Source: Leucoraja erinacea
Taxonomy: Eukaryota
DNA length: 64,000 nt
Direction: 5' to 3'
NCBI RefSeq assembly: GCF_028641065.1
Contig: NC_073396.1
Coordinates: 372,001 to 436,000, forward strand
Below the pieces are notes generated by a model. It was given only the letters and a program-made list of their open reading frames with translations. It ran no database searches and was not told the origin of the DNA. Within the stretch, counting starts at the first letter, position 1, and each line of letters begins with the position of its first letter. Positions 13,461-64,000 of this stretch are shown piece by piece. The translations under genes and the position numbers were made by a program.

Positions 13461-13715
13461 TGTACATGTACAACAAATTTCCTGTTGTACAGTCTCTTGT
13501 TTAGATTCAGGAACATTAATCTCCTCACTTTATTAATACAAACGGAACTCTGCTCAGTTTATGAACCAAGATATTGCATTTGCAGCAAGAGTTTTAAATA
13601 TATTCACTTTGTGCAGCCTCTACCGAGACGTGTTGAACTCTGACACGTGACTAAGGAGCAAGTACAGGGACAAGACACCGGCCCCTCATCCCCCAGTGTG
13701 TTGTTGGGCACATGG

Positions 13716-15700
13716 GGGTGGGGGCCGTGTCCGTGTGATGGGGCCATGTCCGTGTGGTGGGGGCGTGTCCGTGTGTCCGTGTGGTGGGGCCGTGTGATGG
13801 GGCCGTGTGATGGGGGCCGTGTGGTGGGGCCATGTCCGTGTGATGGGGCCGTGTGGTGGGGCCATGTCCGTGTGGTGGGGGCGTGTCCGTGTGATGGGGC
13901 CGTGTGTGGGGCCGTGTCCGTGTGATGGGGCCGTGTGATGGGGCCGTGTCCGTGTGATGGGGCCAGAGTGGTGGGGGCCGTGTGGTGGGGCCGTGTCCGT
14001 GTGATGGGGCCGTGTGGTGGGGCATGTGTGTGGGGCCATGTGGTGGGGCCGTGTAAGTGTGGTGGGGGCGTGTCAGTGTGATGGGGAAGTGTGGTGGGGG
14101 CGTGTGGTGGGGCCGTGTGGTGGGGCCGTGTATGGTGTGGTGGGGGCCGTGTGGTGGGGCCGTGTCTGTGTGGTGGGGCCGTGTGATGGGGCCGTGTCCG
14201 TGTGGTGTGGGGCCGTGTCAGTGTGATGGGGCAGTGTGGTGGGGCCGTGTGGTGGGGCCGTGTCCGTGTGGTGGGGCCGTGTGGTGGGGGGCCGTGTGGT
14301 GGGGGCCGTGTGGTGGGGGCCGTGTCTGTGTGTGGTGGGGCCGTGTGGTGGGGCCGTGTCCGTGTGGTGTGGGGCCGTGTCCGTGTGATGGGGGCCGTGT
14401 CCGTGTGATGGGGCCGTGTGGTGGGGGCCGTGTGGTGGGGCCGTGTGGTGGTGGGGCCGTGTCCGTGTGGTGGGGCCGTGTCCGTGTGGTGGGGCCGTGT
14501 GATGGGGCCGTGTGGTGGGGCCGTGTGGTGGGGCCGTGTCCGTGTGGTGGGGCCGTGTGGTGGGGCCGTGTGGTGGGGCCGTGTGATGGGGCAGTGTGGT
14601 GGGTCCATGTCCGTGTGATGGGGCCGTGTCCGTGTGGTGGGGCCGTGTGGTGGGGCCGTGTGGTGGGGCCGTGTGATGGGGCCGTGTGGTGGGGCCGTGT
14701 CCGTGTGATGGGGCCGTGTGGTGGGGCCGTGTGATGGGGCCGTGTGGTGGGGCCGTGTCCGTGTGATGGGGGGTGTGTGTGGTGGGCCGTGTGATGGGGG
14801 CCGTGTGGTGGTGGGGCCGTGTCCGTGTGGTGGGGCCGTGTGGTGGGGCCGTGTGGTGGGGCCGTGTGGTGGGTCCATGTCCGTGTGATGGGGCCGTGTC
14901 CGTGTGGTGGGGCCGTGTGGTGGGGCCGTGTGGGTCCATGTCCGTGTGATGGGGCCGTGTCCGTGTGGTGGGGCCGTGTGGTGGGGCCGTGTGGGGGGTC
15001 CATGTCAGTGTGGTGGGGCCGTGTCCGTGTGGTGGGGCCGTGTCCGTGTGATGGGGCCGTGTCCGTGTGGTGGGGCCGTGTGTGGTGGGGCCGTGTGTCC
15101 GTGTCCGTGTGGTGGGGCCGTGTCCGTGTGGTGGGGGCGTGTCCGTGTGGTGGGGCGTGTCCGTGTGATGGGTCCATGTCCGTGTGATGGGGCCGTGTCC
15201 GTGTGGTGGGGGCCGTGTCCGTGTGGTGGGGGCCGTGTCCGTGTGGTGGGGCTGTGTGATGGGGGCGTGTGATGATGGGGGCGTGTCCGTGTGGTGGGGG
15301 GGGCGTGTGGTGGGGCCATGTCCGTGTGGTGGGTCCATGTCCGTGTGGTGGGTCCATGTCCGTGTGGTGGGGGCGTGTCCGTGTGAAGGGGGCGTGTCCG
15401 TGTGAAGGGGGCGTGTCCGTGTGAAGGGGGCGTGTCCGTGTGATACCGTGTCCGTGTGAAGGGGGCGTGTCCGTGTGGTGGGGGCCGTGTCCGTGTGGTG
15501 GGGTCCGTGTCCGTGTGGTGGGTCCGTGTGGTGGGGGCCGTGTGGTGGGGGCCGTGTGGTGAGTCCGTGTGGTGGGTAAAACCCGTGTGGTGGGGGCCGT
15601 GTGGTGGGGGCCGTGTGGTGGGGGCCGTGTGGTGTGGGGGCCGTGTGATGGGGCCGTGTGGTGGGGCCGTGTCCGTGTGGTGGGGCCGTGTCCGTGTGGT
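13716..15700 (+). repeat. 2-kb G-rich minisatellite (13-bp GGGGCCGTGTG(G/A)T plus GTCCGTGT inserts) in notum2 intron 4
   Basis: Directly visible; source of the long His/Pro/Thr and Gly/Val/Trp ORFs. Confidence 0.97.
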
Positions 15701-15721
15701 GGGCACTTGGGGGTGGGGGCA

Positions 15722-15922
15722 TCTCAGGCAGCATCTCTGGAGAGAAGGAATAGGTGACGTTTGTGGTCGAGACCCTTCTTCAGACTGAGGTTGGTCGACC
15801 CGAAACGTCACCTATTCCTTTTCTCCATAGATGTTGTCTGACCCACTGAGTTACTCTAGCTCCAGCTGAGTTACATTTGTGTCTATGTTCGGTTTAAACC
15901 AGCATCTGCAGTTCCTTCCAAC
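15722..15922. mobile_element. Inverted pair of Penelope-type 3' ends
   Basis: caggcagcatctctggagagaaggaataggtgacgttt ... gaaacgtcacctattccttttctccatagatg form inverted arms. Confidence 0.75.
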
Positions 15923-17312: not shown

Positions 17313-18497
17313 TATTGTTGAGATCAGTTTTCATCTTTAACTTCTCTCAACAATAACATTATATTTAATTCATATGGAGTAACAGAATGCAGAACCGAAA
17401 CAATCATCTCTGAAGCTTTTGATCACAATTATGTTCCATTTTAACTAACATTTGTTTCAGATTGGTGATGTGACAATTTTGTCCTGTCGGACAGGGAAAT
17501 ATAAAGTTACAAATTCCCTTAATACTTCACAATCACTGTGTAGTCTTTTCTCCAGAGATGCTGTCTGACACGCTGAGTTACTGCAGCTTTTACTGTCTGC
17601 CTGTGGTTTACTCCAGCATCTGCAGTTTGCCAGGGCTTGCCTCGGGTATCAGTCATTCAATCTTTTAATGGTCATACTGAGGAGTTAATATATTGGGCTC
17701 AACAGATTGAGTACTTTCCTGGAGTTCTCTGAACTGTCTGGCGATCTTTTATATCAGCCATGGGGCACATCGGACTTTCTTCAACAACTTATCCAAGTCG
17801 TTCTGAGGATGAATTGAAATGTCAGCAGGGATTATGTGAGGGGGCCACATGACCTCCTGCCCCAGAGGTGAGCAGTTCACCCACTGAGCAACGTCAGACA
17901 CTGGTCAATTTGCCAAACACTGTCCAGTCTGACGTTACCCTGGCAACACTCCCAAAGCGCTGAGAATAGTGCCTGCAATTACTGCAAGAACAAATCGACC
18001 TCTGCCCTTTCATTTTTCCAATCATCTTTGTTGGTGACTCTTGAAAGTCTACTCTTAAATTAGTCCAGAGCAGAGTTGTGCTCAAATCAGAATGAAATTC
18101 CACAGACTCCACCACACATGCACTGAGCAACTGAATGGCAGAAATCCTGGTTGTAAACTTTGCTTACAAATGTAACAGACTGCAATCCTCTTCATATTCT
18201 ATCTGTTCTGGATTGACCAGTATGGCTTGGGCTTTGTATGGTGTGTTTCTATGTAACATACCAATTTGAAATTATAACTCTAATCTTACTCGTTATTTAT
18301 TCAGGTAGTTGTGCAATTATTTAAAATGTTAAAAAGTCTCAAATTCCAAAGCTGGCATTGATTATAGAAAGAAAATGAAACTTATTTCTATTTAGAGAGG
18401 TTAATTTTCAATAATTCCTTCAATAATCAGAATATTTCACTCTAACATGTTAATAAAAGCACTTTGAATCCCTGCATGATTTCGGAATGTCTCTTAC

Positions 18498-18550: not shown

Positions 18551-18796
18551 CTGTAAAGTAACAAGTCACAAGGCGACAGAAATCAAATCAAACACACAAC
18601 CATTGCAACAGATGTTCTGGAAATTAGATTCTAAACTAAATGTCATAGAAATGATCACATTGAATGGCGGTGCTGGCTCGAGTGGCCGAATGGCCTGCAC
18701 CTATTGTCTATTGATATACTATTTGTATCTTTGAGCAGGCACAAACAATAACCAAAGAGTTTTTGCCTGTTTACTAAATGTAACAAAGTTTGTTAC

Positions 18797-19125
18797 CCAG
18801 CTGGAGTTCCATCGTTGCAAGTCACTGTGGTGCTTTTCAAGAAGTTAAGTTTCATTTCTTCTGCACTCGTTGATTTTGAACATTGGTGGAGGGTCTGTGC
18901 CAGAGTCCTGACATTGGACACCAGGTTGTCATTGTCTTCTGTGGCGGTGAGGTTACCGAGGGCTAGTTGTGGGTGAGCGGCAGGTGGCACAGATTCCCCA
19001 CTCGAGGGGCTGGGTGTCCTTCTGTTGGGCCCAGTATTCCTGGAAGCCACCTTAGGTTGTGGCCTGGTTAGAGCCACAGCGACTCCGAACATGGTGCAGA
19101 AAGCGAGGGTGATGGGGAACCTCAT
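18797..19125 (-). CDS. notum2: Notum2-like palmitoleoyl-protein carboxylesterase, coding exon 1 (signal peptide, ends ...MKLNFLKSTTVTCNDGTPAG)
   Basis: ATG at 19125, hydrophobic leader MRFPITLAFCTMFGVAVA, Notum motif VTCNDGTPAG, donor GG|gtaac (phase 2). Confidence 0.9.
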
Positions 19126-19212
19126 CACAAAGCGGGATCTGCAAAAAATTAACACTTGTTAAAACAATCAATGATGACAATTTGAGAATAAAAAGTTTCA
19201 AACGATGCTTAC

Positions 19213-30882: not shown

Positions 30883-31425
30883 TACACATTTTGCTTGTTA
30901 CATTAATGTAGTGTGTTGAGGTTTATCCAAGGCCTGTTCAATATTAAGTTCATTCTAATTGTTACTGAGGAATTTTTATAAAACATTGTTTACCACTTGG
31001 ATAATTTGGCCAACTTTTCAACCTCTATTTCAGATAGATGGTTACACGGGAATCATTTAAAGTGCCTTATTATTGTGGTGAGTAATATCGCTGTCTCTCA
31101 TTTCAACAAATTAGCGTTGATGAGTTTCTAAATCATGCCACTGAAGCTTATTTATTAGTCATGAGGTTTGATTAGAAACTCATAATTACTTACCAGGCAG
31201 ATATGACTGTAGGTCGAGTCTAAATATCAATGCATCTTCTAAATTTATATTTTACAGTATAATTCACTTTACATTCTATACAGAAATTTCTCAACTTGAG
31301 ATTCAAAATTTGGAAACTTAGCAAGAAAAAAAGTCATGGCTGTAGTATTGCTGAGATCCCCAGGTTCAATCCTGACCTCGGGTGCTGTCTGTTTGGAGTC
31401 TGCATGTTCCCTCTGAGACTAAATA

Positions 31426-32339
31426 AGGGCCTGTCCCGCTTGGCAAATTAGCGCGTGATGCTGTGTGTCGCGGCGTGGTGATGTATGATGCGGCCGTGAT
31501 GCTGTGTTGGCGTGGTGATGTATGATGGCGGCGTGGTGATGTATGATGCGGCGTGGTGATGTATGATGCGGCGTGGTGATGTATGATGCGGCGTGATGCT
31601 GTGTGTCGCGGCGTGGTGAGTATGATGCGCGGCGTGGTGATGTTGATGCGGCGTGATGATGTGTGTCGCGGCGCTGTGATGTATGATGCGGCGTGATGTG
31701 TATGATGCGGCGTGATGCTGTGTGTCGCGGCGTGATGCTGTGTGTCGCGGCGTGATGCTGTGTGTGTCGCGGCGTGGTGATGTATGATGCGGCGTGGTGA
31801 TGTATGATGCGGCGTGATGATGTATGATGCGGCGTGATGCTGTGTGTCGCGGCGTGATGCTGTGTGTCGCGGCGTGATGCTGTGTGTCGCGGCGTGATGC
31901 TGTGTGTCACGGCGTGATGATGTATGATGCGGCGTGGTGATGTATGATGCGGCGTGGTGATGTATGATGCGGCGATGGTGATGTATGATGCGGCGTGGTG
32001 ATGTTTGATGCGGCGTGGTGATGTCTGATGCGGCGTGGTGATGTATGATGCGGCGTGGTGATGTATGATGCGGCGTGATGCTGTGTGTCGCGGCGTGGTG
32101 ATGTATGATGCGGCGTGGTGATGTATGATGCGGCGTGATGATGTGTGTCGCGGCGTGGTGATGTATGATGCGGCGTGGTGATGTATGATGCGGCGTGGTG
32201 ATGTATGATGCGGCGGTGTTTTTTCAAGTGTCGCAACATTTTCTTTGTTGCCGCTGGATTTTGAAATGGTCAAAATCTTTTGGCGACACTGAAATGACGC
32301 GGACAGTCGCCGAAGAAATTGCCAAGTGGGACAGGCCCT
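31426..32339. mobile_element. PIF/Harbinger-like non-autonomous DNA transposon filled with a 20-bp CpG-rich minisatellite
   Basis: TIRs AGGGCCTGTCCCGCTTGGCAAATT (31426) and AATTGCCAAGTGGGACAGGCCCT (to 32339); ata/tta flanks; internal array about 31455-32215. Confidence 0.8.
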
Positions 32340-47019: not shown

Positions 47020-48738
47020 CTGAAAGAAAGATACGGTCTTAAGTTCTAAGAGCAGAATTAGGCCATTCAGCCCATCGAGTCTACTCCACCACAACCCTGA
47101 CACCTTTACTAATCAAGAACCTGTCAATCTCTGCCTTAAAAATACCCAATAAATGCTCTTTACATCTCAGTAAAAAGGTAATCTATTTTGAGACTAAACT
47201 ACATTTTAATAACTCAAGACTGTAAATGCATAAAATCAAATATAATTATTAGGATAACTGTACCAATATTCTAGTGAGTTCAGGCCTCACCGTGTAGCAG
47301 CAGTCAGCTCAAGCCCTGACCAAGAATGTCTGAATTTGGTTGCAATACATATCCTATATCCTCCTGACTCCACAATGGACAACTCAGCCTCCTTTTGCTT
47401 ACAGTTTACAGAAAGATCAAAGCATGCACTCAACTAATCTTATGCATTCTGAACATGTTTAATTCATAAAATAATTACATAGCAATACACTCAAATTCAT
47501 TACATTTTGTATAGATAGATTATAACGCTTAAGTAAAATGGTAGCACCATTTATAACATCACATTTTTTAATATAAAAGTATTTGTTTCATTACATCTCA
47601 GTGTCACTGAGTACAGTGAAGTCACTGGAGATTAAGTCTACAAACAGAAAATATTCCATTACTTTGCCGTTTGTCTAGTTCTTGGACAACTTCAATAAAA
47701 ATACACATTATTGAGGCTCAAGGGCATTTCATTGTGTGACTCTGTCATGGTAAACATGAGTTATTCATATTGAGTAATCCTGCAGAAAGATCCTCAAAAC
47801 TACTTTGCCACCGAGACAAGACCATCATTTGCTGCATTGAAGTTTAACCTGCACTTTGATTCTTTTATTTTGACAACCTTAATTACAGTGCAAATATCAT
47901 GAGGAAAATAATCATGAAACGAGTCATTTTGGATGTTAAATGTATTGGAATGTATTTTAAGTGTATTAAAAAAAATCTTCACATTGAATAGTAACATTGA
48001 ACATTGGATACAGTATCGATAAAACTCCTAGAGCGCACCAAAACCCTGAAATGTTACTGTACCTGCACTATACCAATTATTTTATAAAAAATAAAATAAA
48101 AAGCATACACATACCTGATCAAGGTAAAGGATACAAGTGCTAAGAAAATGGGTAAGTATTGCACGTGTAATTCCACTTCACCAGGGACCACTTCATCACA
48201 AATACAGCCCAATATTCACATAGCTGCAAAAGTATCTTCCCTCCAGTCTAGCACAGTCCAGTCAGGTTAATGTTGAACCTGCAATCCCCACTTCAATTAT
48301 TACCAAGACTTACACCCTTTCAACCAATGTGCAATACTCAACCAAGAATGGGGATTCATGGTGATGGATGCTCATCATTCGATTTACTCCAGTTATTTTT
48401 ATTCACTGTGACTTTTATTTTAACTTCCAATAAGCCAAGGAATGGCAGGTATCCCTCGATTTATCCAACGGAAACTCTGTGAGGCTATAATACCTCTTGT
48501 TCACCCACACTACCCAATGCAGCTTGACTAAAACTAAAACTGCACACAACGCAGGAAATGTTGCAGAAAATCCAGGCAAATTCCATGGCGAACATTGAGA
48601 GAAGAATTGAAACTTACAATGATGTGTTTCAGAGATGGCTTAGATCATGGAGTTATTATACTATGTTAATATATTTAAATATGTCTGCACTATGACATAG
48701 ATTTAATTATCTTGCATAAATGGAAAAAAAATGCTTAC

Positions 48739-48878
48739 TTCAAGTAAATCTTTGTGTCCTTCTGGATCATCTTCCATTAACACCCTGATCTGATTGTTAT
48801 AATGCTGTGATATTGTTTCCTCCACTGCTACAGTACAGGCCATGGCACTCTCTTTCCCTAAAAGAGCTGTTCCAGCTC
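48739..48878 (-). CDS. COQ7: COQ7 exon 3 ([46 protein letters not shown])
   Basis: 140 nt, cag/gtaagc, [17 protein letters not shown] motif. Confidence 0.97.
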
Positions 48879-49507
48879 CTGTAAAAAGATGACAGAAAAT
48901 ACCCATTTATCATCAACCCAGTAATCCTGTATCATTTCAACAAACGCCAACAAAATACATACATCGGTGTATCAAAGGATTTACTGTTCTGTAATAGGTG
49001 TATCTGCCATTATATTAGGAAACCTTACATTGAATAAACCATATCACATGTTGTTCCAGAAATATAATGCATTTAAAAACTGAATATAATGCCACTTCTG
49101 GCAATTGCAATAATAACATTTGTAACGAGTGTTCGATTTCCATCTCTCCTCCGCTCTCAGAAACACACACACACACGTTCTCTCATGCACACATACATGT
49201 GTGCACAACCAACCACACACACAAACAAACTTGGAGAGCTCAAATGTCTCTGTTAAGCCTGAGGAAAAGAGGAGAATATTCCCTGAATAGGCACATTGCC
49301 AGCCGAGATAACACAATCCCATTGCCGCTCAGAAGCATAGATAGGTCAAAAATAGGTCAATATTTACAAACGATTGAAGATTTTAAAGTAAGAGTTTAGG
49401 AAGGAAATGAAGTTACAAAACAGAACTCAATGTGAAAATTACTAGTGCAAAACATGCATCTGGTTTTTGTAAATCAGCATTGGCGTTACTCTATGTTGGT
49501 TGAAGAA

Positions 49508-49925: not shown

Positions 49926-50492
49926 GGATGTTGATTAAATCTTACTTTGGCCATTTCCATTTTTGATTACATAAAATTCCAATAATCCAGCATCCTTGGT
50001 GTCAGACTGGCAGATTCTCGGGCCCAGTGCACATTTACTGTTGTACAATAGCTTTTCCAGTTTAGGCTTAGTTTAACCCACGTGTTGGAAACTGGGGCCA
50101 GTAACGTTAAAACGAGCATTGTAACACAGTCTTAGTGCATTTGAAGGGAGTGCATCAATGGGTCCCAACATGGGAAAAAGCAGTGTAGGTAACGGCATCA
50201 GATGAGGCAGATGCTGAACCATCTGAACAATAAGGTCGGGAATTATCTGAGTTACTGAGAAAAGCCAGCAGGAGATCAAAACATTCAGAAAGCCACCTGA
50301 GAAACTGGAGAAATCAGGAAGTCAAATTGTACGATGATATTATCTATCTGAAAAATGCAGCGACTGTAATACTGCAAAACAGTGACAGCAGTGAAAGACC
50401 TATTGAAATGAGGATCCTGCAGGTACTTGTGTGATTTCACTGCAACCCTTGATTGAGTGTGTAAGTGGATTGGAATAAATGATAGTATTTAC

Positions 50493-50607
50493 CCAACATG
50501 AAGCCTGCAACGTTCCAGATCGGCATCAGCAGGGTTGGTCGAACTCTGTGATCAACAATCAGTTCATTGAATTTTGCCAGATGCTCCTTTTCTTGATCCC
50601 ACATTTG
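50493..50607 (-). CDS. COQ7: COQ7 exon 2 ([39 protein letters not shown])
   Basis: 115 nt, tag/gtaaat, ExxH iron-ligand motif and RVRPT. Confidence 0.97.
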
Positions 50608-52157: not shown

Positions 52158-52429
52158 TAAATTCAGGACTGAAGTTCTGAGAAGAAATTCCTTTACCCGA
52201 AGGCTGGTGAATATTTGAAAATCTCTACTTCAGAGAAGTGTGATGGGGCAAATGCAGTGTTTAATCAGAGATCAACAGTTATTTGGATGGGGTAGTGCAG
52301 GAATGTGGCACCGTTAAAAGATTATGATCTTCTAACTCGCCGAATAGGTGTAAGGAGTTTACTTCTATTTCTGGAAAACACAAGAGACTGGAGATCTTGA
52401 GTAAGAAAAAAAACAAAGTGCTGAATAGT

Positions 52430-53838
52430 GCACCCACCTGTACCCGTACCCACCTGTATCCGTGCCCACCTGTACCCGTGCCCACCTGTACCCGTGCCCA
52501 CCTGTACCCGTGCCCACCTGTACCCATCCCACCTGTATCCGTGCCCACCTGTACCCACACCCATCTGAACCCGCGCCCACCTGTACCCACACCCACCTGT
52601 ACCCACGCCCACCTGTACCCGCGCCCACCTGTACCCGCGCCCACCTGTACCCGTACCCACCTGTACCCGTACCCACCTGTACCCGTACCCCCCACCTGTA
52701 CCCACACCCACCTGTACCCACACCCACACCCACCTGTACCCGCCCCACCTGTACCCACACCCACCTGTACCCACACCCACCTGTACCCGTGCCCACACCC
52801 ACCTGTACCCACACCCACCTGTACCCACACCCACCTGTACCCGCCCCACCTGTACCCACACCCACCTGTACCCACACCCACCTGTACCCGTGCCCACACC
52901 CACCTGTACCCACACCCACCTGTACCCACACCCACCTGTACCCGTGCCCACACCCACCTGTACCCACACCCACCTGTACCCACACCCCACCTGTACCCAC
53001 ACCCACACCCACCTGTACCCCCACACCCACCTGTACCCCACCCACTGTACCCACACCCACCTGTACCCACACCCACCTGTACCCACACCACTGTACCACC
53101 CACCTGTACCCACACCCACACCCACCTGTACCCACACCCCACCCACCTGTACCCACACCACCCTGTACCCACACCCACACCCACACCCACCTGTACCCAC
53201 ACACCTGTACCCACCCACCTGTACCCACACCCACCTGTACCCACACCCACCTGTACCCACACCCACCTGTACCCACACCCACCTGTACCCACACCCACAC
53301 GTACCCACACCCACACCCACCTGTACCCACACCCACCTGTACCCACCACACACCCACCTGTACCCACACCCACCTGTACCCCTGTACCACACCCCTGTAC
53401 CCACACCCACCTGTACCCACACCCACCTGTACCCGCGCCCACCTGTACCCTGTACCGCCCACCTGTACCCACACCCTGTACCCTGTACCTGTACGCGCCC
53501 ACCTGTACCCGCGCCCACCTGTACCCACACCCACCTGTATCCACACCCACCTGTACCCACGCCCACCTGTACCCACGCCCACCTCTACCCGCACCCACAC
53601 CCACCTGTACCCACACCCCCGTACCCACGCCACCTGTACCCCGCCACCTGTACCACCACCCCACACCCACCTGTACCCACCACCCCTGTACCCACACCCA
53701 CCTGTACCCACACCCACCTGTACCCACACCCACCTGTACCCACACCCACCTGTACCCACACCCACACCCACCTGTACCCACACCCACCTGTACCCACGCC
53801 CACCTGTATCCGCGCCCACCTGTACCCACACCCACCTG
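52430..53838 (-). repeat. 1.4-kb minisatellite, 16-bp unit GGTACAGGTGGGTGTG (minus strand), starting at the COQ7 exon 1 donor
   Basis: Directly visible (CACCTGTACCCACACC on +). Confidence 0.97.
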
Positions 53839-54051
53839 TATGAGCGGCCCGGCCGCGGAGCCGCCCAGCACGGCCATCTGACCCGCGTAGATGCGGATGG
53901 CGCCGAACTCGCCCGCCTGATCCACCCGGAGGATGCGGCCTAGTAGCTGCCGCTGGGCCCGGCTGCCAAGGGCCCGCCGCTGTAGCAGCTGCCAGCCGAG
54001 CGCGGCGCCCCGGGCCAGCAGCGGGCCGGAGTGGGCGACCACTCGCTCCAT
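53836..54051 (-). CDS. COQ7: COQ7 (5-demethoxyubiquinone hydroxylase) coding exon 1: targeting peptide plus RVDQAGEFGAIRIYAGQMAVLG
   Basis: 72 codons from ATG 54051, COQ7 di-iron helix motif, donor CAG|gtgggt in phase 0. Confidence 0.93.
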
Positions 54052-54939
54052 CAGGTCGCTGCTAGCTCACGGCCAGAGGTCACCGGGTCCTGCACCCTGC
54101 GGTGGCCGTGCAGCTGCCTGTGTCTACCACCCCCAACCCGGAGCCCACAACCCTGTCACAGTGTCAGTCGGCAATGCAGGCGGTGGCAGTTTGCTCCGTG
54201 CAGTGAGAACATGTAGTTTATTTATATTTAAAATACGAATCCCTTCATTCCCACTGAAAGACCCAGCGCCCGCCCCTCCCCTTGGTCAGCGCCGCACCAA
54301 CGCCGCCTGCTGATTGGCCGCGGGGACCGTCACTCACAGCGGCCATGCTCGTCCCGCCCCCGTTGCCAACCCCGCCCCTGCACCGCCCATAGTGCCCCGC
54401 CCCCGCACCAACCCCGCCCCAAACACACTGGCCCCGCCCATAGTGCCCCGCCCCCGCCCGCCCCGCCCCCTCGCAGTGCCGTGACGACCACTGGCCCCGC
54501 CCATAGTGCCCCGCCCCCGCACTAACCCCCGCCCCCGCACTAACCCCGCCCCAAACACACTGGCCCCGCCCATAGTGCCCCGCCCTCGCACCAACCCAAC
54601 CCCCCCCCGCAGTGCCCCGCCCCCCCAGTGCCGTGACGACCACTGGCCCCCCCAACCCCCCCCCCGCACCAACCCCGCCCCCTCGCAGTGCCGTGACGAC
54701 CGCTGGCCCCGCCCCCGCACTAACCCCGCCCCCGCACCAACCCCGCCCCCCGCGTGCCGTGACGACCATTGGCCCCGCCCCCGTATTGCCCTGGCGACCA
54801 CTGGCCACGCCCCACCTTCGCCCCGCCCCCGCGTTGCCCTGGCGACCACTGGCCACGCCCCCAACCTCGCCCCGCCCCCGCGTTGCCCTGGCGACCGGCC
54901 TCTGCCTTGCCCCGGGTGAGGCCCGACACTGACTCTGCT
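54052..54939. promoter_or_regulatory. CpG-island bidirectional promoter (COQ7 / unnamed + strand gene) with GC-box repeats, CCAAT and X-box-like motifs
   Basis: Very GC- and CpG-rich; many CCCCGCCC; ATTGG at 54313-54317; (G/A)TTGCCCTGGCGAC at 54785, 54833 and 54882; divergent ATGs at 54051 (-) and 54940 (+). Confidence 0.8.
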
Positions 54940-54986
54940 ATGGCCGTCTCCTCCAACCATGTCATTCATGCCGTCGCCAAACACTT
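54940..54986 (+). CDS. Unnamed gene exon 1 (MAVSSNHVIHAVAKHL)
   Basis: GCTATGG Kozak-like start at the island edge, donor TT|gtaagt (phase 2). Confidence 0.7.
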
Positions 54987-55513
54987 GTAAGTCAGTTTCA
55001 TTCACACAATATTTCCGTTTCTAAATGATGCTTTCCATAGTTAGTTTGAGGTTATTTGTGACAGAAGTCTAAAGCTTTGAAGAAGGGTGTCACCTATCCA
55101 TGTTCTCCACAGATGCTGCCCTGCCTGACCCGCTGCGTTACTCCAGCACTCTGTGTCTGTCTCCTATACTAGGGGCTACTTCACCCTTCAGTCTGTCTGT
55201 CTGTCAGCCGGCAGGCCTTTGAGATGTGAGAAGAAACCAGAGTATGCAGGAGAACTTAATGTTGTGCATGCCCCAAACCCCATGAAAACCTAACCCCATT
55301 GTATCTCCAGCTGAGCTAGATTGAAAAATAATTAGGCGACATGATCCATTTGTCTCTACATACATGCAAGTTTTAAATAAACCAGCATTGAGTCAATTAA
55401 AAGCAGTTATTTCATTGTAGTAAATTTACAAATTCAAGGGAAAACATAATTTAAAAAATGTTTACTGTTATTTCAAGCATATAATTACTATTTTTTCCCT
55501 TTGTTACATATAG

Positions 55514-55604
55514 GAAATATTATATTGACATACAACGGAAAGAAGATGGCTTTAACCTCTCTGGAATTGATGCACCTCACACGCACAACCCTAATTGTAA
55601 ACCT
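55514..55604 (+). CDS. Unnamed gene exon 2 (KYYIDIQRKEDGFNLSGIDAPHTHNPNCKP)
   Basis: Polypyrimidine tract plus tag acceptor, 91 nt, gtaagt donor, phases 2->0, open in the required frame. Confidence 0.75.
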
Positions 55605-56217
55605 GTAAGTTTTCTAAGATATAGTGAGGTGAAAGTTTTTTTCCATCAGGACCAACATGCTTCTTGTCTCATATGGGCTGTGATATATTTTTATTTGATC
55701 TTGGTAGATTTTTAGCATCAAGTTGGTTTGCCACAAAGATCAATTTCATTCATAAAAAAGAACAATTATTGGAAGTACTCTTATAGAACGTGGAAAGAAT
55801 GAACTTATCCAGTGCAACAGAATTGGAAAAGTGGGAAAATAAATTGATAATAGGGGAGGCATGAATGAGTAATCTCTACTTGGTGAAGGCCAAGGTTGCT
55901 ATGGTGGTTTGCTGTTTGCAAAGTCATTTGTGTGTTAGATTTATGAGGACAGTTGAAGAAGAGAGAACAAATCTTGCTCCACCTTTACGATCTTTCAGTT
56001 AATACAGCTCTTTGAAAATGTTTTGCAAACCTATTTATCTTGGTACCATGTTTCCTTTTTGAATAACTAATTTCCTTGGGCAGTTTACTGTAGAAAGGCC
56101 TGAGCCCTTTAACAAATATTGTTAGCATGTGCGGTGTTCATTAGGTAACATCAATGTTGCAAGGGAGAGAAGTCATAATTATTTGGACTTTTAGACAGAT
56201 TCAATAGATTGTCAGAT

Positions 56218-56583
56218 CTGAAGAAGGGTTTTGACCCGAAACGTTGCCTATTTCCTTTGCTCCATACAAACATAGAAAATAGGTGCAGGAGTAGGCCATT
56301 CGGCCCTTCAAGCCTGCACCGCCATTCAATATGATCATGGCTGATCATCGAACTCAGTATCCTGTACCTGCCTTCTCTCCATACCCCCTGATCCCTTTAG
56401 CCACAAGGGCCATATCTAACTCCCTCTTAAATATAGCCAATGAACTGGCCTCAACTACCTTCTGTGGCAGAGAATTCCACAGATTCACCACTATCTGTGT
56501 GAAATGTAGATGCTGCCTAGCCCGCTGAGTTTCTCCAGCATTTTTGTCTACCTTCGATTTTCCAGCATCTGCAGTTCCTTCTT
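56218..56583 (+). mobile_element. Penelope-type 3' end (hammerhead-like core 56218-56245) split by a minus-strand CR1 3' end (about 56268-56505)
   Basis: ...ctccata | CR1 | tagatgctgcc... restores the contiguous consensus seen at 17259-17271. Confidence 0.82.
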
Positions 56584-56586
56584 AGG

Positions 56587-57325
56587 AGATGCAGCGAGAC
56601 CTGGGTGTCATGGTACACCAGTCATTGAAGGTAGGCATGCAGATGCAGCAGGCATTGAAGAAAGCGAATGGTATGCTAGCATTCATAGCAAAAGGATTTG
56701 AGTATAGGAGCAGGGAGGTTCTACTGCAGTTGTACAGGGTCTTGGTGAGACCACACCTGGAGTATTGCGTACAGTTTTGGTCTCCAAATCTGAGGAAGGA
56801 CATTATTGCCATAGAGGGAGTGCAGAGATGGTTCACCAGACTGATTCCTGGGATGTCAGGACTGTCTTATGAAGAAAGACTGGATAGACTTGGTTTATAC
56901 TCTCTAGAATTTAGAAGATTGAGAGATGATCTTATAGATCCTTACAAAATTCTTAAGGGGTTGGACAGGCTAGATGCAGGAAGTTTGTTCCCGATGTTAG
57001 GGAAGTCCAGGACAAGGGGTCACAGCTTAAGGATAAAGGGGAAATCCTTTAAAACCGAGATGAGAAGAACTTTTTTCACACGGAGAGTGGTGAATCTCTG
57101 GAACCCCTCTGCCACAGAGGTTAGTTGAGCCCAGTTCATTGGCTTTTTTTAAGAGGAGGTTGGTTGTGGCCCTTTGGGCTAAGGGGATCAGGGGTATGGA
57201 GAGAAGGCAGGTACGGGATACTGAGTTGGATGATCAGCCATGATCATATTGAATGGCGGTGCAGGCTCGAAGGGCCGAATGGCCTACTCCTGCACCTAAT
57301 TTCTATGTTTCTCTATGTTTCTATG
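56587..57325 (+). mobile_element. 5'-truncated CR1 LINE
   Basis: ORF 56589-57128 is CR1 ORF2 C-terminus; 3'UTR and (tttctatg)n tail follow. Confidence 0.95.
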
Positions 57326-57627
57326 TTAAACATAATAAGACCATGTTACATATACAACAGATTCCTGAACTACAAGGTTAAATTAGGCTGCTTGTGATGG
57401 CTATGATAAGAATATAACTATTTTTACAACTCATAATTGATCACCAAAAAATAAAAGGAATGAGGCAAAATACTTTCTCTCAGAAGGTGGTAGGAATCTG
57501 GACTTCTTTGGCCGAAAGGATGGTGGAGGGAGAAACTGTCACACATCTAGAAAGTTCTTGTATTTGGAATCGGTAAGCCATGACCTGCAGACCTGTGGAT
57601 GATATGTTGTAAAATGGGATTGGGCAT

Positions 57628-58455
57628 AATAATAATAATAATAATAATAATATTTATTTATATAGCACTTTTCAACAAAACCAGTATTTGAACCAAAGTG
57701 CTTTACAGAGATTGATTAAATTAATTGAACAGATCAATGCAATAAATCCATACAAATCAAAAAAAGAGAAAAAAGAGAAAAAGAAAAAAGACACAGAAAC
57801 AGTACACTATAGAAATCAACATGAAACGTCCCCCCACAGCAGAATTCACTGTGAGGGAAGGCACCAAAAAATATCCAGTTCTCCCCCTCATAGTCCACCC
57901 GAGGTCGGGGCCTATATCTGGCCTCCTCAGCCAGCCCGGTATCTTCAGGCCCTCCTGCCGTGAAGCTGGACCATCGGCGTCGGTGAACGTCCATCAGCGG
58001 CCAGGACTGAAGCGGCCGCTTCCCCCCCGAAGACTGCAACGACCAAAGTTCACAGGCCGCGCCGGCCGAACCCCCGACACTGGCGATCTCGGATCCCAGG
58101 CTCCGCGGTGCTGTCGACGGTCACAGTGCCCCGGAGATTACCGCAAGGCGACCCGGTAAGGCATCGCACGCTCCTTGTAGATGTCCCAGCATCTACACCG
58201 CCGTCGAAGCTGCAGTCCCCGCAGGAAACGCCGCTCCAGCGCTGCTCCAGTTTGACTAGGCCGCACAGAGAGGACGAAGATGCGGTTCGGAGAAAAACCG
58301 CATCTCCGACCAGGTAGAACTGGGGTTAAAATAGTTTCCCCCTTCCCCTCCCCCACCCACCACATAAAAGAAGTCCTCCAATAAACATTTCATACGAACA
58401 GGACTAAAAATAAAAATAAAAAAGGGTGAAAGGACGGACAGCAGGAGGAGCGGCC
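57628..58455 (-). mobile_element. Probable non-autonomous retroelement with an L2-like 3' end and a CpG-rich interior
   Basis: (TTA)n tail and tgtaaagcactttgg...gtgctatataaataaa on the minus strand; GC-rich 57880-58320 with no recognisable protein. Confidence 0.5.
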
Positions 58456-60146
58456 ATAATGGACCAGATTGTTTTGGAGTTGTGAATTTTATATGATTAT
58501 GATCATAAGATTATTAGGATCTGGATGGCTTTTGCCAGCAAAACAAATACTGTCTGGTCCTGAAAAGTAAGGTTGTGTTTGATATATGTCAATTCTGCTT
58601 GCTGTTGGCTTGCTGGCAGAATGTTGTGGCCCTTAGTTCCATAGATCTGACCCAGCCATGTTCCAGATTATTTGACTTGATCACCTCTCTCAATATATTT
58701 GAAAATGAATATCTCTCCATATGTCCACTTGACATCAATAGATCCAAATAACAGGTTGGGTGTATAATAGGCAGCTGATGCCATCATGGCCATTTAGTAC
58801 CGTATCCAAAATGAAATTCCATCTGTTGAAATTGAGAGTAGTTGACCTAAACCATGGCAATAAACGTCGCAATATATGTTAAACGTTTTTGATTAGGTGC
58901 AAGGATGATTAGTAAAATACCTTTGCTTTTTGTGGAATTATTTTTTGAGATTGAAAGAAGAGTGCATGGGATAACAAAATAAATTTCAGGAGAAGTACAT
59001 CAATGGAAAGTATGATTAGAGTGACCTCAGAAGCCAAGTAGAAACAGAACCAGTTACATTGCCATCACAAGAACAAGCGATTGTGCAGTTTATAAATGTG
59101 CCTTGACATGATTAAACATTATGACTTCAAATACATCTGATTAAGGAGGGTAGATCATTATCTTCACCTCTCCACATTTGATTCTTACAAACTTCATGCA
59201 TTGTTTTCTCAGCAAGTCTATACATGCATGTTTCCACAGTCTTTATTTATAGTTAATTTGTTTCTCAATACAAAGTCAGAGTGATTGAGTGTTTCTTTAA
59301 TATGAACTAGTGCCTCCCTCTATAAGAAAACTAAACATATCTTTATTAAGGTAATAAACCTACCTACTGCATTGTTTATCGTAACACCCTGTCAAATCAA
59401 ATCAAAACATTAATAGGAAGAGGAATATAATTGATTTATCAATTAATTATTTTAAACATAATGTGATGATAAATACAATTTGTTTATATGCCTTGTGACA
59501 AACTTCTAATGCGATTCTAATTTTGTGTGTTTGTTTATTTAATGGAGAAAAATACAGAATATATGTGTTACAATTCCACAGTAGTTAATGAGTTTTGTCA
59601 TCCATGGAATGAAGTCAACTCTTAACCACACTTTTATTCAAGTAGCAATGTGATTTGGGAGAAACTGGAAGACAGCATCAAACACTAACACCAATATGAC
59701 TGACCTTTTAACCAAATTTACATTTGGTTATGTGTACATTAGACTCATTTCCTTCTTAGTTCCTAGTGGGAGTTTGTACCAGAGGATGACACAAAGATAG
59801 ACACAAAATGTTGGAGTAACTCAGTGCGACAGGCAGCATCTCTGGAGAGAAGGAATGGGTGATGTTTCTGGTCGAGACCCTTCCTCAGACACAGGATCCA
59901 GGAGTTGTCTTCGTTCACTCCATTTCCTCATTTAATGTAAATTGGTCACTGAAGGAAAGGTTCTCGGTACGGAAAGCTACTCTACCATAGCAATAGACTC
60001 AGAAACCTGATGCACAAAATTTGTGGTGTACTTAATCCAAAGCAAAAGATGTACATGAATTGATTAATACAGTAATTTTGTTGATTTTTCTGATTTTTTG
60101 TGATTAACCATGTATATTTTGTTTTACATTGGACTTTTCTCTGCAG

Positions 60147-60344
60147 CTGCCAATAGTGGGTATTGAAAAAGTCCATGACAGAAGCCTTAAACATTATTTC
60201 AGTGATCCTAATTTTAAAACAATTCTTCAAATGAGCTATGGAAGAACAATTGAAAATCAGAAAAGAAAATTACAATTAAATCACAAAAGGGAAATCAATG
60301 TGCAGAGAATGATCAGGAAAAAAATGTCCAAACTGGATTTTTCA
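60147..60344 (+). CDS. Unnamed gene exon 3 (LPIVGIEKVHDRSLKHYFSDPNFKTILQ...KMSKLDFS); gene continues beyond this exon
   Basis: cttttctctgcag acceptor, 198 nt open in AT-rich DNA, gtaagt donor, phase 0->0. Confidence 0.75.
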
Positions 60345-60799
60345 GTAAGTTTATTTATTCTCTTAATATAGTATTTTAAAAATCTGATAGGTGAAGATAT
60401 TAATTTGCAAGTGTTTCACTATTTTACGTGAAAACAATTAGCAACATGAATGAATGAATAAGTTCATTAGCCAAGTATTCACGTACAAGGAATTTGCCTT
60501 GTTGCTCCGCCCGCAAGTGACATTGACATACAGTGAAAGTTAGGAATGACACATAAAACATTAAACACATATCATCTTTTAAATTGACACTTATTTCAAA
60601 GACAGTTACAGTGAGGAGTTAAGAGAGAATATACGTTGCTGGCAGGGTGCGTTTGAATCACACTCACAATACCTTTTATCGCCACCTCTTCTAGAGTCCC
60701 ACTGTCATCTAATGATATTAAAGCAAAGTTGAACGTATATTTTGAAATCTGTTATTCCATTATAATTTGTGTCTGTTGCATTAAACAATAATTCATGAA

Positions 60800-61070
60800 G
60801 GCACAGCGGTAGAGCTGCTGCCTCACAGTGCCAGAGACCTGTGTTCGATCCTGACTACGGGTGCTGTCTGTACGGAGTTTGTACATTCTCCCCGTGACCT
60901 ACATGGGTTTTCTCCAAGAACTTTAGTTTCCATCCACAGTCCAAAAACTTACACGTTTGTTGGTTAATTGGCTTCAGAAAAAAAATGTAAATTGTCCCTA
61001 GTGTGTGTAGGACAGTGTTAGTGTGCGGGGATCGCTGGTTGGCCGAAGGGCCTGTTTCCACGCTGTACCT
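60800..61070 (+). mobile_element. tRNA-derived SINE
   Basis: gcacagcggtagag...gttcgatcctgactacgggtgctgtctgtacggagtttgtac...ggccgaagggcctgtttcc. Confidence 0.88.
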
Positions 61071-61514
61071 ATATGCTAAATTAACCATTATGCCTGCAAT
61101 GCGGAAGCATTGAAATAAAAACACATTTATAATAAGTAAAAATAAATGGAATCACCTGGAGGCTGAGTAGAATCATCTCCAACAGTTACAAATGCACACT
61201 GAGAGTGGGGATGATCTTGGAGTCACTAGAACCTGGTGGTCAATTAATGTCCACTATCACCATTCACAGCCAGATGTGGCAGCACTCTCGCCTGATCCAG
61301 AGGTTTAGTCAGTCTGCATATAACATTCATTATTGAATTTGTATTTAGTCCTGTATGGTTCATTCACAAGTTGGTACTTCAGATATTCATGTTGCTGCAA
61401 CTGATGTGTTTTGGAACTTTGGGTTGAACAAAGATTGGTCCTTTGGTTTGGTGTATGAAGGATGTGTCAGTCCATGGATATTACCCTGCACCTCCCTATC
61501 TCCCCATTCACATT

Positions 61515-62300
61515 AGAAACATAGAAACATAGAAAATAGGTGCTGGAGTAGGCCATTCGGCCCTTTGAGCCAGCACCACCATTCAATATGATCATGGCTG
61601 ATCATCCAAAATCAGTACCCTGTTCTGGCTTTTTCCCCAGATCCCTTGATTCCCTTAGCCCTAAGATCTAAATCTAACTCTCTCTTGAAAACATCCAGTG
61701 AATTGGCCTCCACTGCCTTCTGTGGCAGAGAATTCCACAGATTCACAACTCTCGGGGTGAAAAAGCTTTTCCTCTTTTCAGTCCCAAATGGCCTACCTCT
61801 TATTCTTAAACTGTGACCCCTGGTTCTGGACTTCCCCAACATCAATAGACAATAGGAGCAGGAGTAGGCCATTCGGCCCTTCGAGCCAGCACCGCCATTT
61901 AATGTGATCATGGCTGATCATCCCCAATCAGTACCCCGTTCCTGCCCTATCTAGCTCTCTCTTGAAAGCATCCAGAGAACCTGCCTCCACTGCCCTCTGA
62001 GGCAGAGAATTCCACAGATTCACAACTCTCTGTGAGAAAAAGTTTCCTCATCTCCGTTCTAAATGGCTTAGTCCTTATTCTTAAACTGTGGCCCTTGGTT
62101 CTGGACTCCCCCAACATCGAGAACATGTTTCCTGCCTCTAGCGTGTCCAAACCCCTAACAATCTTATATGTTTCAATGAGATCACCTCTTATCTTTCTAA
62201 ACTCCAGAGTGTACAAGCCCAGCAGCTCTATTCTCTCAGCATATGACAGTCCCGCCATCCTGGGAATCAACCTTGTAAACCTACGCTGCACTCCCTCAAA
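61515..62300 (-). mobile_element. Two adjacent CR1 3' fragments
   Basis: 61515-61841 has a (tttctatg)n tail; 61843-62300 reads FEGVQRRFTRLIP and has a (ctattgt) tail. Confidence 0.9.
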
Positions 62301-64000
62301 GTCAAATGTGGGTCCCTTGAAGGCAGACACGGGTGAAATTAGTACGGGGAACAAGGAAATGGCAGAAGAGTTGAACAGGTACTTCGGATCTATCTTCACT
62401 AAGGAAGACACAAACAATCTCCCAGAAGTACTGGAGGACAGAGGATCTAAGGGAATTGAGGAACTGAAATAAATTTTCATTAGGTGAGAAATAGTATTGG
62501 CTAATGGGACTGAAGGATGATAAATCCCCAGGGCCTGATGGACTGCATCCCAGGGTCCTCAGGGAGGTGGCTCTAGAAATAGTGGACGCATTGGTGATCA
62601 TTTTCCAATGTTCAATAGATTCAGGATCAGTTCCTGTGGATTGGAGGATAGCTAATGTTATCCCACTTTTCAAGAAAGGTGCGAGAGAGAAAACAGGGAA
62701 AGATGCTGGAGTCAATTATTAAAGAGGTAATAATGGGACATTTGGATAGCAGTAAAAGGATTAGTCCGTCAGCATGGATTTATGAAAGGAAAATCATGCT
62801 TGACTAATCTTCTGGAATTTTTTGAGGATGTGACAAGTAAAATGGATGAAGGGGAGCCAGTGGATGTAGTGTATCTAGACTTTCAGAAAGCCTTTGATAA
62901 GGTCCCGCACAGGAGACTGGTGACTAAAATTAGAGCGCATGGTATTGGGGGTAGGGTGTTGACGTGGATAGAAAATTAGTTGGCAGACAGGAAGCAAAGA
63001 GTAGGAGTGAACGGGTCCTTTTTAGAATGGCAGGCAATGGCGAGTGGAGTGCCGCAAGGCTCGGTGTTGGGGCCGCAACTGTTTACCATATATATTAATG
63101 ATTTGGAAGAGGGAATCAGGAGCAACACTAGCAAGTTTGCGGATGACACAAAGCTGGGTGGCAGTGTGAACTGTGAAGAAGATGTTAGGGGGTTGCAGGG
63201 TGACCTGGACAGGTTGAGTGAGTGGGCAGATGCATGGCAGATGCAGTATAATATAGATAAATGTGAGGTTATCCACTTTGGTGGCAAAAGCAAGGGGGCA
63301 GATTATTATCTCAATGGGGTTATGTTAGGTACAGTGAGACCTGAGTGTCCTTGTACACCGGTCACAGAAAGTTGGCGTGCAGGTACAGCAGGCAGTGAAG
63401 AAAGCTAATGGAATGTTGGCCTTCATAACAAGAGGATTTCAGTATAGGAATAGAGAGGTTCTTCTGCAGTTGTATAGGGCTCTGGTAAGACCACATCTGG
63501 AGTATTGTGTACAGTTTTGGTCTCCTAATTTGAGGAAGGACATCCTTATGATTGAGGCAGTGCAGCGTAGGTTCATGAGATTGATCCCTGGGATGGCGGG
63601 ACTGTCATATGAGGAAAGATCGAAGAGACTAGGCTTGTATTCACTGGAGTTTAGAAGGATGAGGGGGATCTTATAGAAACATATAACATTATAAAAGGAC
63701 TGGACAAGCTAGATGCAGGAAAAATGTTGGGTGAGTCCAGAACCAGGGACCACAGTCTTAGAATAAAGGGGAGGCCATCTAAGACTGAGGTGAGAAAAAT
63801 CTTTTTCACCCAGAGAGTTGTAAATTTGTGGAATTCCCTGCCACAGAGGGCAGTGGAGGCCAAATCACTGGATGGATTTAAGAGAGAGTTAGATAGAGCT
63901 CTAGGGGCTAGTGTAGTCAAGGGATATGGGGAGAAGGCAGGCACGGGTTATTAATTGGGGATGATCAGCCATGATCGCAATGAATGGCGGTGCTGGCTCG
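62301..64000 (+). mobile_element. Long decayed CR1 ORF2 (RT domain) running to the 3'UTR at the window edge
   Basis: KSPGPDGLHPRVLRE, GKSCLTNLLEFF, YLDFQKAFDKV, GVPQGSVLGP, KFADDTK, LVRPHLEYCVQFW; contains stops and frameshifts. Confidence 0.96.

What the first reader, a model, noticed from the sequence alone, without database searches (positions are those of the whole stretch)
54785..60344. Unnamed spliced gene head-to-head with COQ7, with a C17orf98/SPMAP1-like N-terminal motif (candidate ciliary/flagellar gene)
Seen: three exons with gtaagt donors join in frame (phases 2, 0, 0) into 112 stop-free codons, MAVSSNHVIHAVAKHLKYYIDIQRKEDGFNLSGIDAPHTHNPNCKPLPIVGIEKVHDRSLKHYFSDPNFKTILQ..., which the ORF track shows only in pieces (exon 2 is absent from it). 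From memory: RKEDGFNLSGI...HDRSLKHYFS resembles C17orf98/SPMAP1 (RLEKGFILDGV...QDYHARSYFQ) and the D.HL..Y(F/Y) motif of ERICH3 and FSIP2. Inference: a poorly characterised axonemal protein gene. I recall no protein-coding divergent partner of human COQ7, so it may have been lost in mammals.
Basis: partly seen in the sequence, partly recalled or inferred. Interest (0 to 1): 0.75.

Follow-up and report, generated by a model that had tools for sequence, protein, structure and literature searches.

The report
Ancient PLAT-ankyrin gene beside COQ7
These three exons are the start of a real, spliced but unnamed skate gene from an ancient animal family found from sponges to reptiles and not detected in mammals; it likely works in cilia or sperm tails, but that role is untested.

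Summary
The gene is real. Exons 54940-54986, 55514-55604 and 60147-60344 join into 112 stop-free codons, identical to the start of the RefSeq uncharacterised skate protein LOC129706602. The full protein (about 800-900 aa) is a Pfam-less ~170-aa N-terminal module, a PLAT domain, a variable linker and ankyrin repeats. That module defines a family running from sponges, placozoans and cnidarians to amphibians and reptiles, with introns 1 and 2 at the same codons in skate and coral-like loci. Ray-finned fish, coelacanth and reptile models keep the module but lack PLAT and intact ankyrin repeats. No mammal or bird protein was named. The SPMAP1 likeness gets weak support only: sub-threshold Pfam hits in 6 relatives, none in the skate protein or the PDB. 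A strict RFX X-box lies 45-107 bp upstream of the ATG. Best reading: a ciliary or flagellar scaffold (0.5). No localisation or tissue data were found.

The parts
54940..54986 (+). Exon 1 coding part (ATG to phase-2 donor), residues 1-16
   Evidence: same donor codon and phase in coral-like loci L004, L005, L006, L008
55514..55604 (+). Exon 2 (91 nt), residues 16-46, conserved block 1 with R24, E26, F29
   Evidence: a 91-nt exon with AG acceptor in 9 of 9 related loci tested, GT donor in 8 of 9, the ninth already spliced
60147..60344 (+). Exon 3 (198 nt), residues 47-112, conserved block 2 (D57, K61, H62, F64), the SPMAP1-like stretch
54987..55513 (+). Intron 1 (phase 2)
55605..60146 (+). Intron 2 (phase 0), rich in high-copy repeats
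60345..64000 (+). Start of intron 3; the remaining exons (PLAT, linker, ankyrin) lie beyond the window
   Evidence: no further exon found by tblastn in the window; full protein
54772..54896 (.). 48-bp tandem repeat (2.6 copies) carrying RFX X-box matches at 54833-54846 and 54882-54895, and a one-mismatch copy at 54785-54798
   Evidence: consensus from PMC2375033
54000..54999 (.). CpG island / shared promoter region between COQ7 and this gene (GC 0.69-0.74, CpG o/e 0.82-0.90)
53845..54051 (-). COQ7 first coding exon region (likely ATG 54051); further COQ7 exons within 50437-50607 and 48703-48906
   Evidence: Pfam PF03232; ORF list

Best explanation
This is the 5' end of a spliced, ancient animal gene whose protein joins a conserved basic N-terminal module to a PLAT domain, a variable linker and ankyrin repeats, and it likely acts as an RFX-driven scaffold in cilia or sperm flagella. 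Shown: splicing, domain architecture, family range, conserved introns and the X-box sequence. Inferred: RFX switches the gene on in ciliated cells. Inferred: the N-terminal module (separate helices, SPMAP1-like block 2, net basic) would dock on the outer wall of axonemal microtubules. Inferred: PLAT would contact membrane lipid or a membrane protein, and the ankyrin repeats would recruit a partner, so that the full-length form links axoneme and ciliary membrane. The N-terminal module is likely the core function, because ray-finned fish, coelacanth and reptile models keep it without PLAT and intact ankyrin repeats. My odds: ciliary role about 0.6, microtubule docking about 0.4, axoneme-membrane tether about 0.25.
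For: (1) The strict published X-box consensus RTNRCC-N1-3-RGYAAC matches twice, 45-107 bp upstream of the ATG; 11 of 2000 dinucleotide shuffles of the 600-bp promoter had one or more matches. RFX motifs are the top motif within 100 bases of the start sites of multiciliated-cell genes (PMC5245798, passages). SPMAP1/2 are outer-surface sperm doublet proteins (PMC11779644 legend; PMC13406575 passage). (3) The module is basic (30 K+R against 15 D+E) and is predicted as separate helices with low-confidence linkers. (4) Named members come from animals with motile cilia or flagellate sperm; none was named from nematodes or insects. The biology of those taxa is recalled.
Against: No localisation or tissue data. 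The SPMAP1 hits are 11-12 bits under the cut-off, come from related sequences, and are absent for the skate protein. Four profiles and three single queries found no SPMAP1 or other axonemal chain at a meaningful score in the PDB (best RIB43A-like E 0.37). The two X-boxes are one site duplicated, the promoter is shared with COQ7, and no strict X-box lies upstream of the ATG in 2 of 2 coral-like loci with upstream DNA. The Hydractinia orthologue appears only as a nominal marker of two gland clusters and one neuron cluster (adjusted p 0.6-1.0), not of gametogenesis cluster 6 (file cut, cluster 34 probably unseen). No non-animal member was named, unlike core axonemal proteins (recalled). Mammals and birds have motile cilia but no detected member.
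Confidence: 0.5

Rival explanations
1. A non-ciliary membrane-associated adaptor: PLAT and ankyrin repeats link a channel or signalling protein to the cell cortex, and the N-terminal module binds another partner; the X-box and SPMAP1 likeness are incidental.
For: PLAT and ankyrin repeats are generic modules. The X-box is not seen in coral-like promoters. The Hydractinia nominal markers are gland and neuron clusters. SPMAP1 hits stay under the cut-off.
Against: Of 24 ray-finned fish, coelacanth and reptile proteins tested, none has PLAT and none has intact ankyrin repeats, yet all keep the N-terminal module. The strict X-box next to the ATG is rare by chance.
Confidence: 0.27
2. A sperm or ciliary anchoring protein whose amphipathic helices bind RIIa/DPY30-type dimers (AKAP-like) rather than tubulin.
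For: Helices 5-22 and 150-167 are amphipathic (moments 0.44 and 0.36), and the second is strongly conserved (E152, R155, L156, A160). Radial-spoke assembly uses RIIa or DPY30 domains (PMC11779644 passage).
Against: No AKAP family or structure was hit. Amphipathic helices are common, and no control was run.
Confidence: 0.13
3. A DNA-binding protein with a degenerate ETS-like motif.
For: The 88-position profile weakly matched ETS domains (E 0.63-1.5).
Against: Those scores are at chance level. No ETS Pfam hit appeared in any scan. The models show no winged-helix fold.
Confidence: 0.04
4. Chance exons or a non-coding divergent transcript of COQ7.
For: None found.
Against: Identity with RefSeq proteins, conserved frame and intron phases from coral-like loci to skate, and spliced contigs.
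Confidence: 0.01

Closest known systems
RefSeq uncharacterised models LOC129706602 (Leucoraja erinacea) and LOC116986026 (Amblyraja radiata)
   Same: Same gene or its direct orthologue: 112 and 110 of 112 residues identical.
   Different: The models carry no name, family or function; no paper holding six family identifiers was found.
SPMAP1 / C17orf98 (Pfam PF15075)
   Same: Weak match of block 2 to profile positions 31-73 in several relatives; basic, non-globular N-terminal module.
   Different: Hits are under the cut-off and cover under a third of the 134-position profile. This family adds PLAT, a linker and ankyrin repeats and has no detected mammalian member.
ERICH3 and FSIP2
   Same: Long low-complexity proteins linked to cilia or sperm. 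ERICH3 is in motile and primary cilia (PMC6848114 passages).
   Different: No Pfam family of either was hit; I recall no PLAT or ankyrin domains in them.
PLAT-domain proteins (LOXHD1, polycystin-1 family, lipoxygenases)
   Same: One PLAT domain above the Pfam cut-off; some frog members are auto-named LOXHD1-like.
   Different: A single PLAT between a new N-terminal module and ankyrin repeats. No PLAT array, transmembrane or catalytic domain was reported. I recall no human protein with PLAT plus ankyrin repeats.

Membership tests
SPMAP1-like (PF15075) | Score at or above the Pfam gathering cut-off (27 bits) | tested here: not met
   No hit for the skate protein; best relatives 15-16 bits
SPMAP1-like (PF15075) | Shared short motif at profile positions 31-73 | tested here: inconclusive
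   6 distinct relatives hit at E 0.015-0.12; no SPMAP1 chain hit in PDB searches
SPMAP1-like (PF15075) | Binds the outer surface of sperm doublet microtubules | not testable with these tools
   Needs cryo-EM or a binding assay; fold searches gave no clear match
ERICH3 / FSIP2 | Homology of the N-terminal motif | not testable with these tools
PLAT/LH2 domain proteins (PF01477) | PLAT domain above cut-off | tested here: met
   P0001 residues 201-309, E 7e-11, 43 bits against 23; encoded outside the window
Ankyrin repeat proteins | Ankyrin repeats above cut-off | tested here: met
   P0001 residues 685-786, Ank_2 E 6e-12; encoded outside the window
RFX target genes | X-box close to the start of the gene | tested here: met
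   Strict consensus at 54833-54846 and 54882-54895
RFX target genes | X-box conserved in orthologous promoters | tested here: inconclusive
   0 of 2 coral-like loci; no vertebrate orthologous promoter was available
RFX target genes | RFX binding and RFX-dependent expression | not testable with these tools
   Needs ChIP or knockdown data
Unnamed pan-animal N-module + PLAT + ankyrin family (defined here) | N-terminal module, domain order and intron positions | tested here: met
   65 of 82 hits carry both PLAT and ankyrin; introns 1 and 2 at the same codons and phases

The most novel reading that the evidence does not exclude
The N-terminal module is an unrecognised microtubule outer-wall binding unit shared with SPMAP1, and perhaps ERICH3 and FSIP2. 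The full-length protein is an animal-specific axoneme-to-membrane tether dating from the origin of animals. It was cut back to its docking module three times in bony vertebrates (ray-finned fish, coelacanth, reptiles) and lost in mammals.
Probability: 0.2. Interest if true: 0.72.

Novelty: new variant of a known kind. Interest (0 to 1): 0.46.

Why it matters
It is a gene family as old as animals with a conserved domain that Pfam lacks, and it is unnamed probably because humans and mice seem to lack it. If it is ciliary, it is a candidate for unassigned axonemal or membrane-link densities in invertebrate, shark and frog cilia, and it would extend the SPMAP1 motif into a wider module. Repeated loss of PLAT and ankyrin gives a natural deletion series. 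It can be tested directly in frog multiciliated skin or in Nematostella (orthologue LOC5515317 / A7RYU3).

Tried and rejected
No whole genome is held, so downstream exons and synteny could not be read. No listed run holder is on record as RNA. Raw-read run X12 (another species label, about 6% read) gave no depth on exons 2 and 3; this is no evidence either way. PDB sequence searches with four profiles and three single proteins gave nothing significant for the N-terminal module. Foldseek and VIA-align on the better model (pLDDT 67) gave only generic helix matches, best Z 5.5. The ESM Atlas gave no usable hit. The ETS look-alike was rejected as chance. Literature: PLAT domain + ankyrin + flagell gave 2 unrelated papers (listing only); six family identifiers gave 0 papers; ERICH3 + FSIP2 + microtubule gave 1 unrelated paper (listing only); the MIP-motif paper PMC10973386 does not mention ERICH3, FSIP, DUF4542 or C17orf in its main text. 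Supplements: no occurrence in PMC5816591, PMC11589584 or PMC11806052. COQ7 linkage is not ancient: coral-like loci are head-to-head with an AMP-binding-family gene instead. dN/dS was not computed because no orthologous chondrichthyan coding DNA was held. Earlier scan findings: none.
Full report
Observation. The three exons exist as described: 54940-54986, 55514-55604 and 60147-60344, with AG acceptors, GTAAGT donors and phases 2, 0, 0. They join to 112 codons without a stop, and GTAAGT occurs nowhere else in 54000-64000. COQ7 lies on the minus strand (PF03232 on three exon frames), with its likely ATG at 54051. A CpG island separates the two genes.

The gene is spliced. Exon 3 found RefSeq proteins of Leucoraja, Amblyraja and Hemitrygon. 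The joined product equals their first 112 residues at 112, 110 and 82 of 112 positions, and 70 of 112 in catshark. Contigs from three RNA-guessed runs begin or end exactly at the exon-3 boundaries; the joint rows themselves were crowded out by repeats. A protein from a 1065-nt contig crosses junctions 2/3 and 3/4.

The whole protein. The skate isoforms are 792-896 aa. They consist of an N-terminal ~170 aa with no Pfam family, PLAT at 201-309, a poorly conserved linker, and ankyrin repeats at 685-786. The window holds only residues 1-112.

The family. A profile of the N-terminal module found 82 proteins of 332-2000 aa, of which 65 carry both PLAT and ankyrin, and 116 representatives among 1.84 billion. 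Named members include sponges, Trichoplax, cnidarians, a flatworm, an orthonectid, molluscs, an annelid, a nemertean, scorpions, a crinoid, hemichordates, amphioxus, tunicates, sharks and rays, sturgeon, paddlefish, gar, bowfin, two elopomorph teleosts, coelacanth, amphibians, a turtle and squamates. No mammal, bird, insect, nematode or non-animal was named. Of the 86 representatives left unlabelled, every amniote-like one was at least 52% identical to a turtle or squamate protein. Absence is therefore 'not detected': squamate members already score as low as E 2e-8. A quick tree of 78 N-terminal regions broadly follows animal groups (the careful search did not finish and many deep forks are weak). 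In 188 aligned regions, which include isoforms and near-duplicates, E26 is invariant (165 of 165), with R24 162 of 165, Y19 160 of 166, R155 148 of 154 and E152 147 of 155.

Intron conservation. Eleven metagenome loci encode relatives. In the 9 tested, exon 2 is the same 91 nt after an AG; 8 end in a GT donor and the ninth is already joined to exon 3. Four coral-like loci split exon 1 in the same codon and phase as the skate. Several loci are duplicates, so about five distinct sequences are represented.

Domain loss. Family-built profiles found no PLAT in 24 of 24 ray-finned fish, coelacanth, turtle and squamate proteins. They found only a weak ankyrin remnant in the 2 turtle proteins (E 2e-4 to 3e-4). 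Five of five amphibian proteins have PLAT and four of five have ankyrin repeats (two of these helped build the ankyrin profile). On the accepted vertebrate tree (recalled) this implies three independent truncations, if the gene models are complete.

Neighbourhood. A sturgeon gene model fuses this module to a TMC-domain protein, which fits the COQ7-TMC7-TMC5 block that I recall from mammals. In coral-like loci the head-to-head partner is an AMP-binding-family gene, not COQ7, so the COQ7 link is probably positional only.

Function, for. The strict X-box consensus from PMC2375033 (passages) matches at 54833-54846 and 54882-54895; 11 of 2000 promoter shuffles had any match, and the window has three such sites in all. 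I noticed the site before choosing the consensus. RFX motifs mark multiciliated-cell promoters (PMC5245798, passages). PF15075 SPMAP1-like recurs below its cut-off: 4 of 100 (profile 31-73, on block 2), 4 of 35 (overlapping set) and 1 of 26, six proteins in all. SPMAP1/2 sit on the outer surface of sperm doublets (passages). The module is basic and is predicted as separate helices (pLDDT 59 and 67).

Function, against. The skate protein has no SPMAP1 hit, PDB searches reached no SPMAP1 chain, and the fold searches were uninformative. The X-boxes are one site in a 48-bp tandem repeat, sit in a shared promoter, and are absent upstream of 2 of 2 coral-like genes. PMC2375033 warns that a degenerate X-box alone is not predictive. 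The Hydractinia orthologue is only a nominal marker of gland and neuron clusters (PMC11876637 supplements). No tissue or localisation data were found.

Mechanism. I commit to an RFX-driven ciliary or flagellar scaffold (0.5). The N-terminal module would dock on axonemal microtubules, PLAT would contact the membrane (lipid and calcium binding by PLAT domains is recalled), and the ankyrin repeats would hold a partner. Every functional step is inferred.

Known or new. The gene model is already in RefSeq as uncharacterised. It is not a member of the SPMAP1 family by Pfam's cut-off, though it may work like one. The family, its N-terminal domain and its architecture were not found described in the searches made, which cover open-access papers only. 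Verdict: a real gene in an undescribed ancient family built partly from known modules; new variant of a known kind; interest 0.46.

Noticed in passing
window 18793-19158 (-): An open frame whose end resembles the first exon of a NOTUM-like gene (recalled); the Pfam scan gave no support.
   Followed up: partly
window 17934-17947: A third strict, near-palindromic X-box, far from this gene.
   Followed up: no
window 54338-54346 (-): An ATG followed by two codons and a GT donor upstream of COQ7; the acceptors I tried by eye do not join it in frame with the ATG at 54051, so it may be a 5' UTR exon or upstream ORF.
   Followed up: partly
window 52279-53843: A long low-complexity tandem array in the COQ7 intron gives spurious 400-600 aa frames; similar arrays lie at 13600-15800 and 31400-32300.
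   Followed up: no
L005 1427-3301 and L006 1888-3454 (-): The coral-like orthologue is head-to-head with an AMP-binding-family gene (fatty-acid-transporter-like by recall), about 500 bp between the start codons.
   Followed up: partly
L004 81-3747: The contig keeps intron 1 but has exon 2 joined to exon 3, like a partly spliced transcript.
   Followed up: partly
proteins P0119, P0130, P0143, P0145, P0154: A clade that includes a Ciona savignyi protein but is distinct from the Ciona intestinalis / Phallusia clade; possibly a second tunicate paralogue.
   Followed up: no
proteins P0033, P0129, P0049, P0072 and others: A conserved C-terminal motif after the ankyrin repeats in 24 of 215 stored proteins; the named ones are sponge, cnidarian, nemertean and annelid, none vertebrate.
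   Followed up: no
proteins P0065, P0144: Turtle members keep a weak ankyrin remnant at the C-terminus, suggesting loss by decay.
   Followed up: partly
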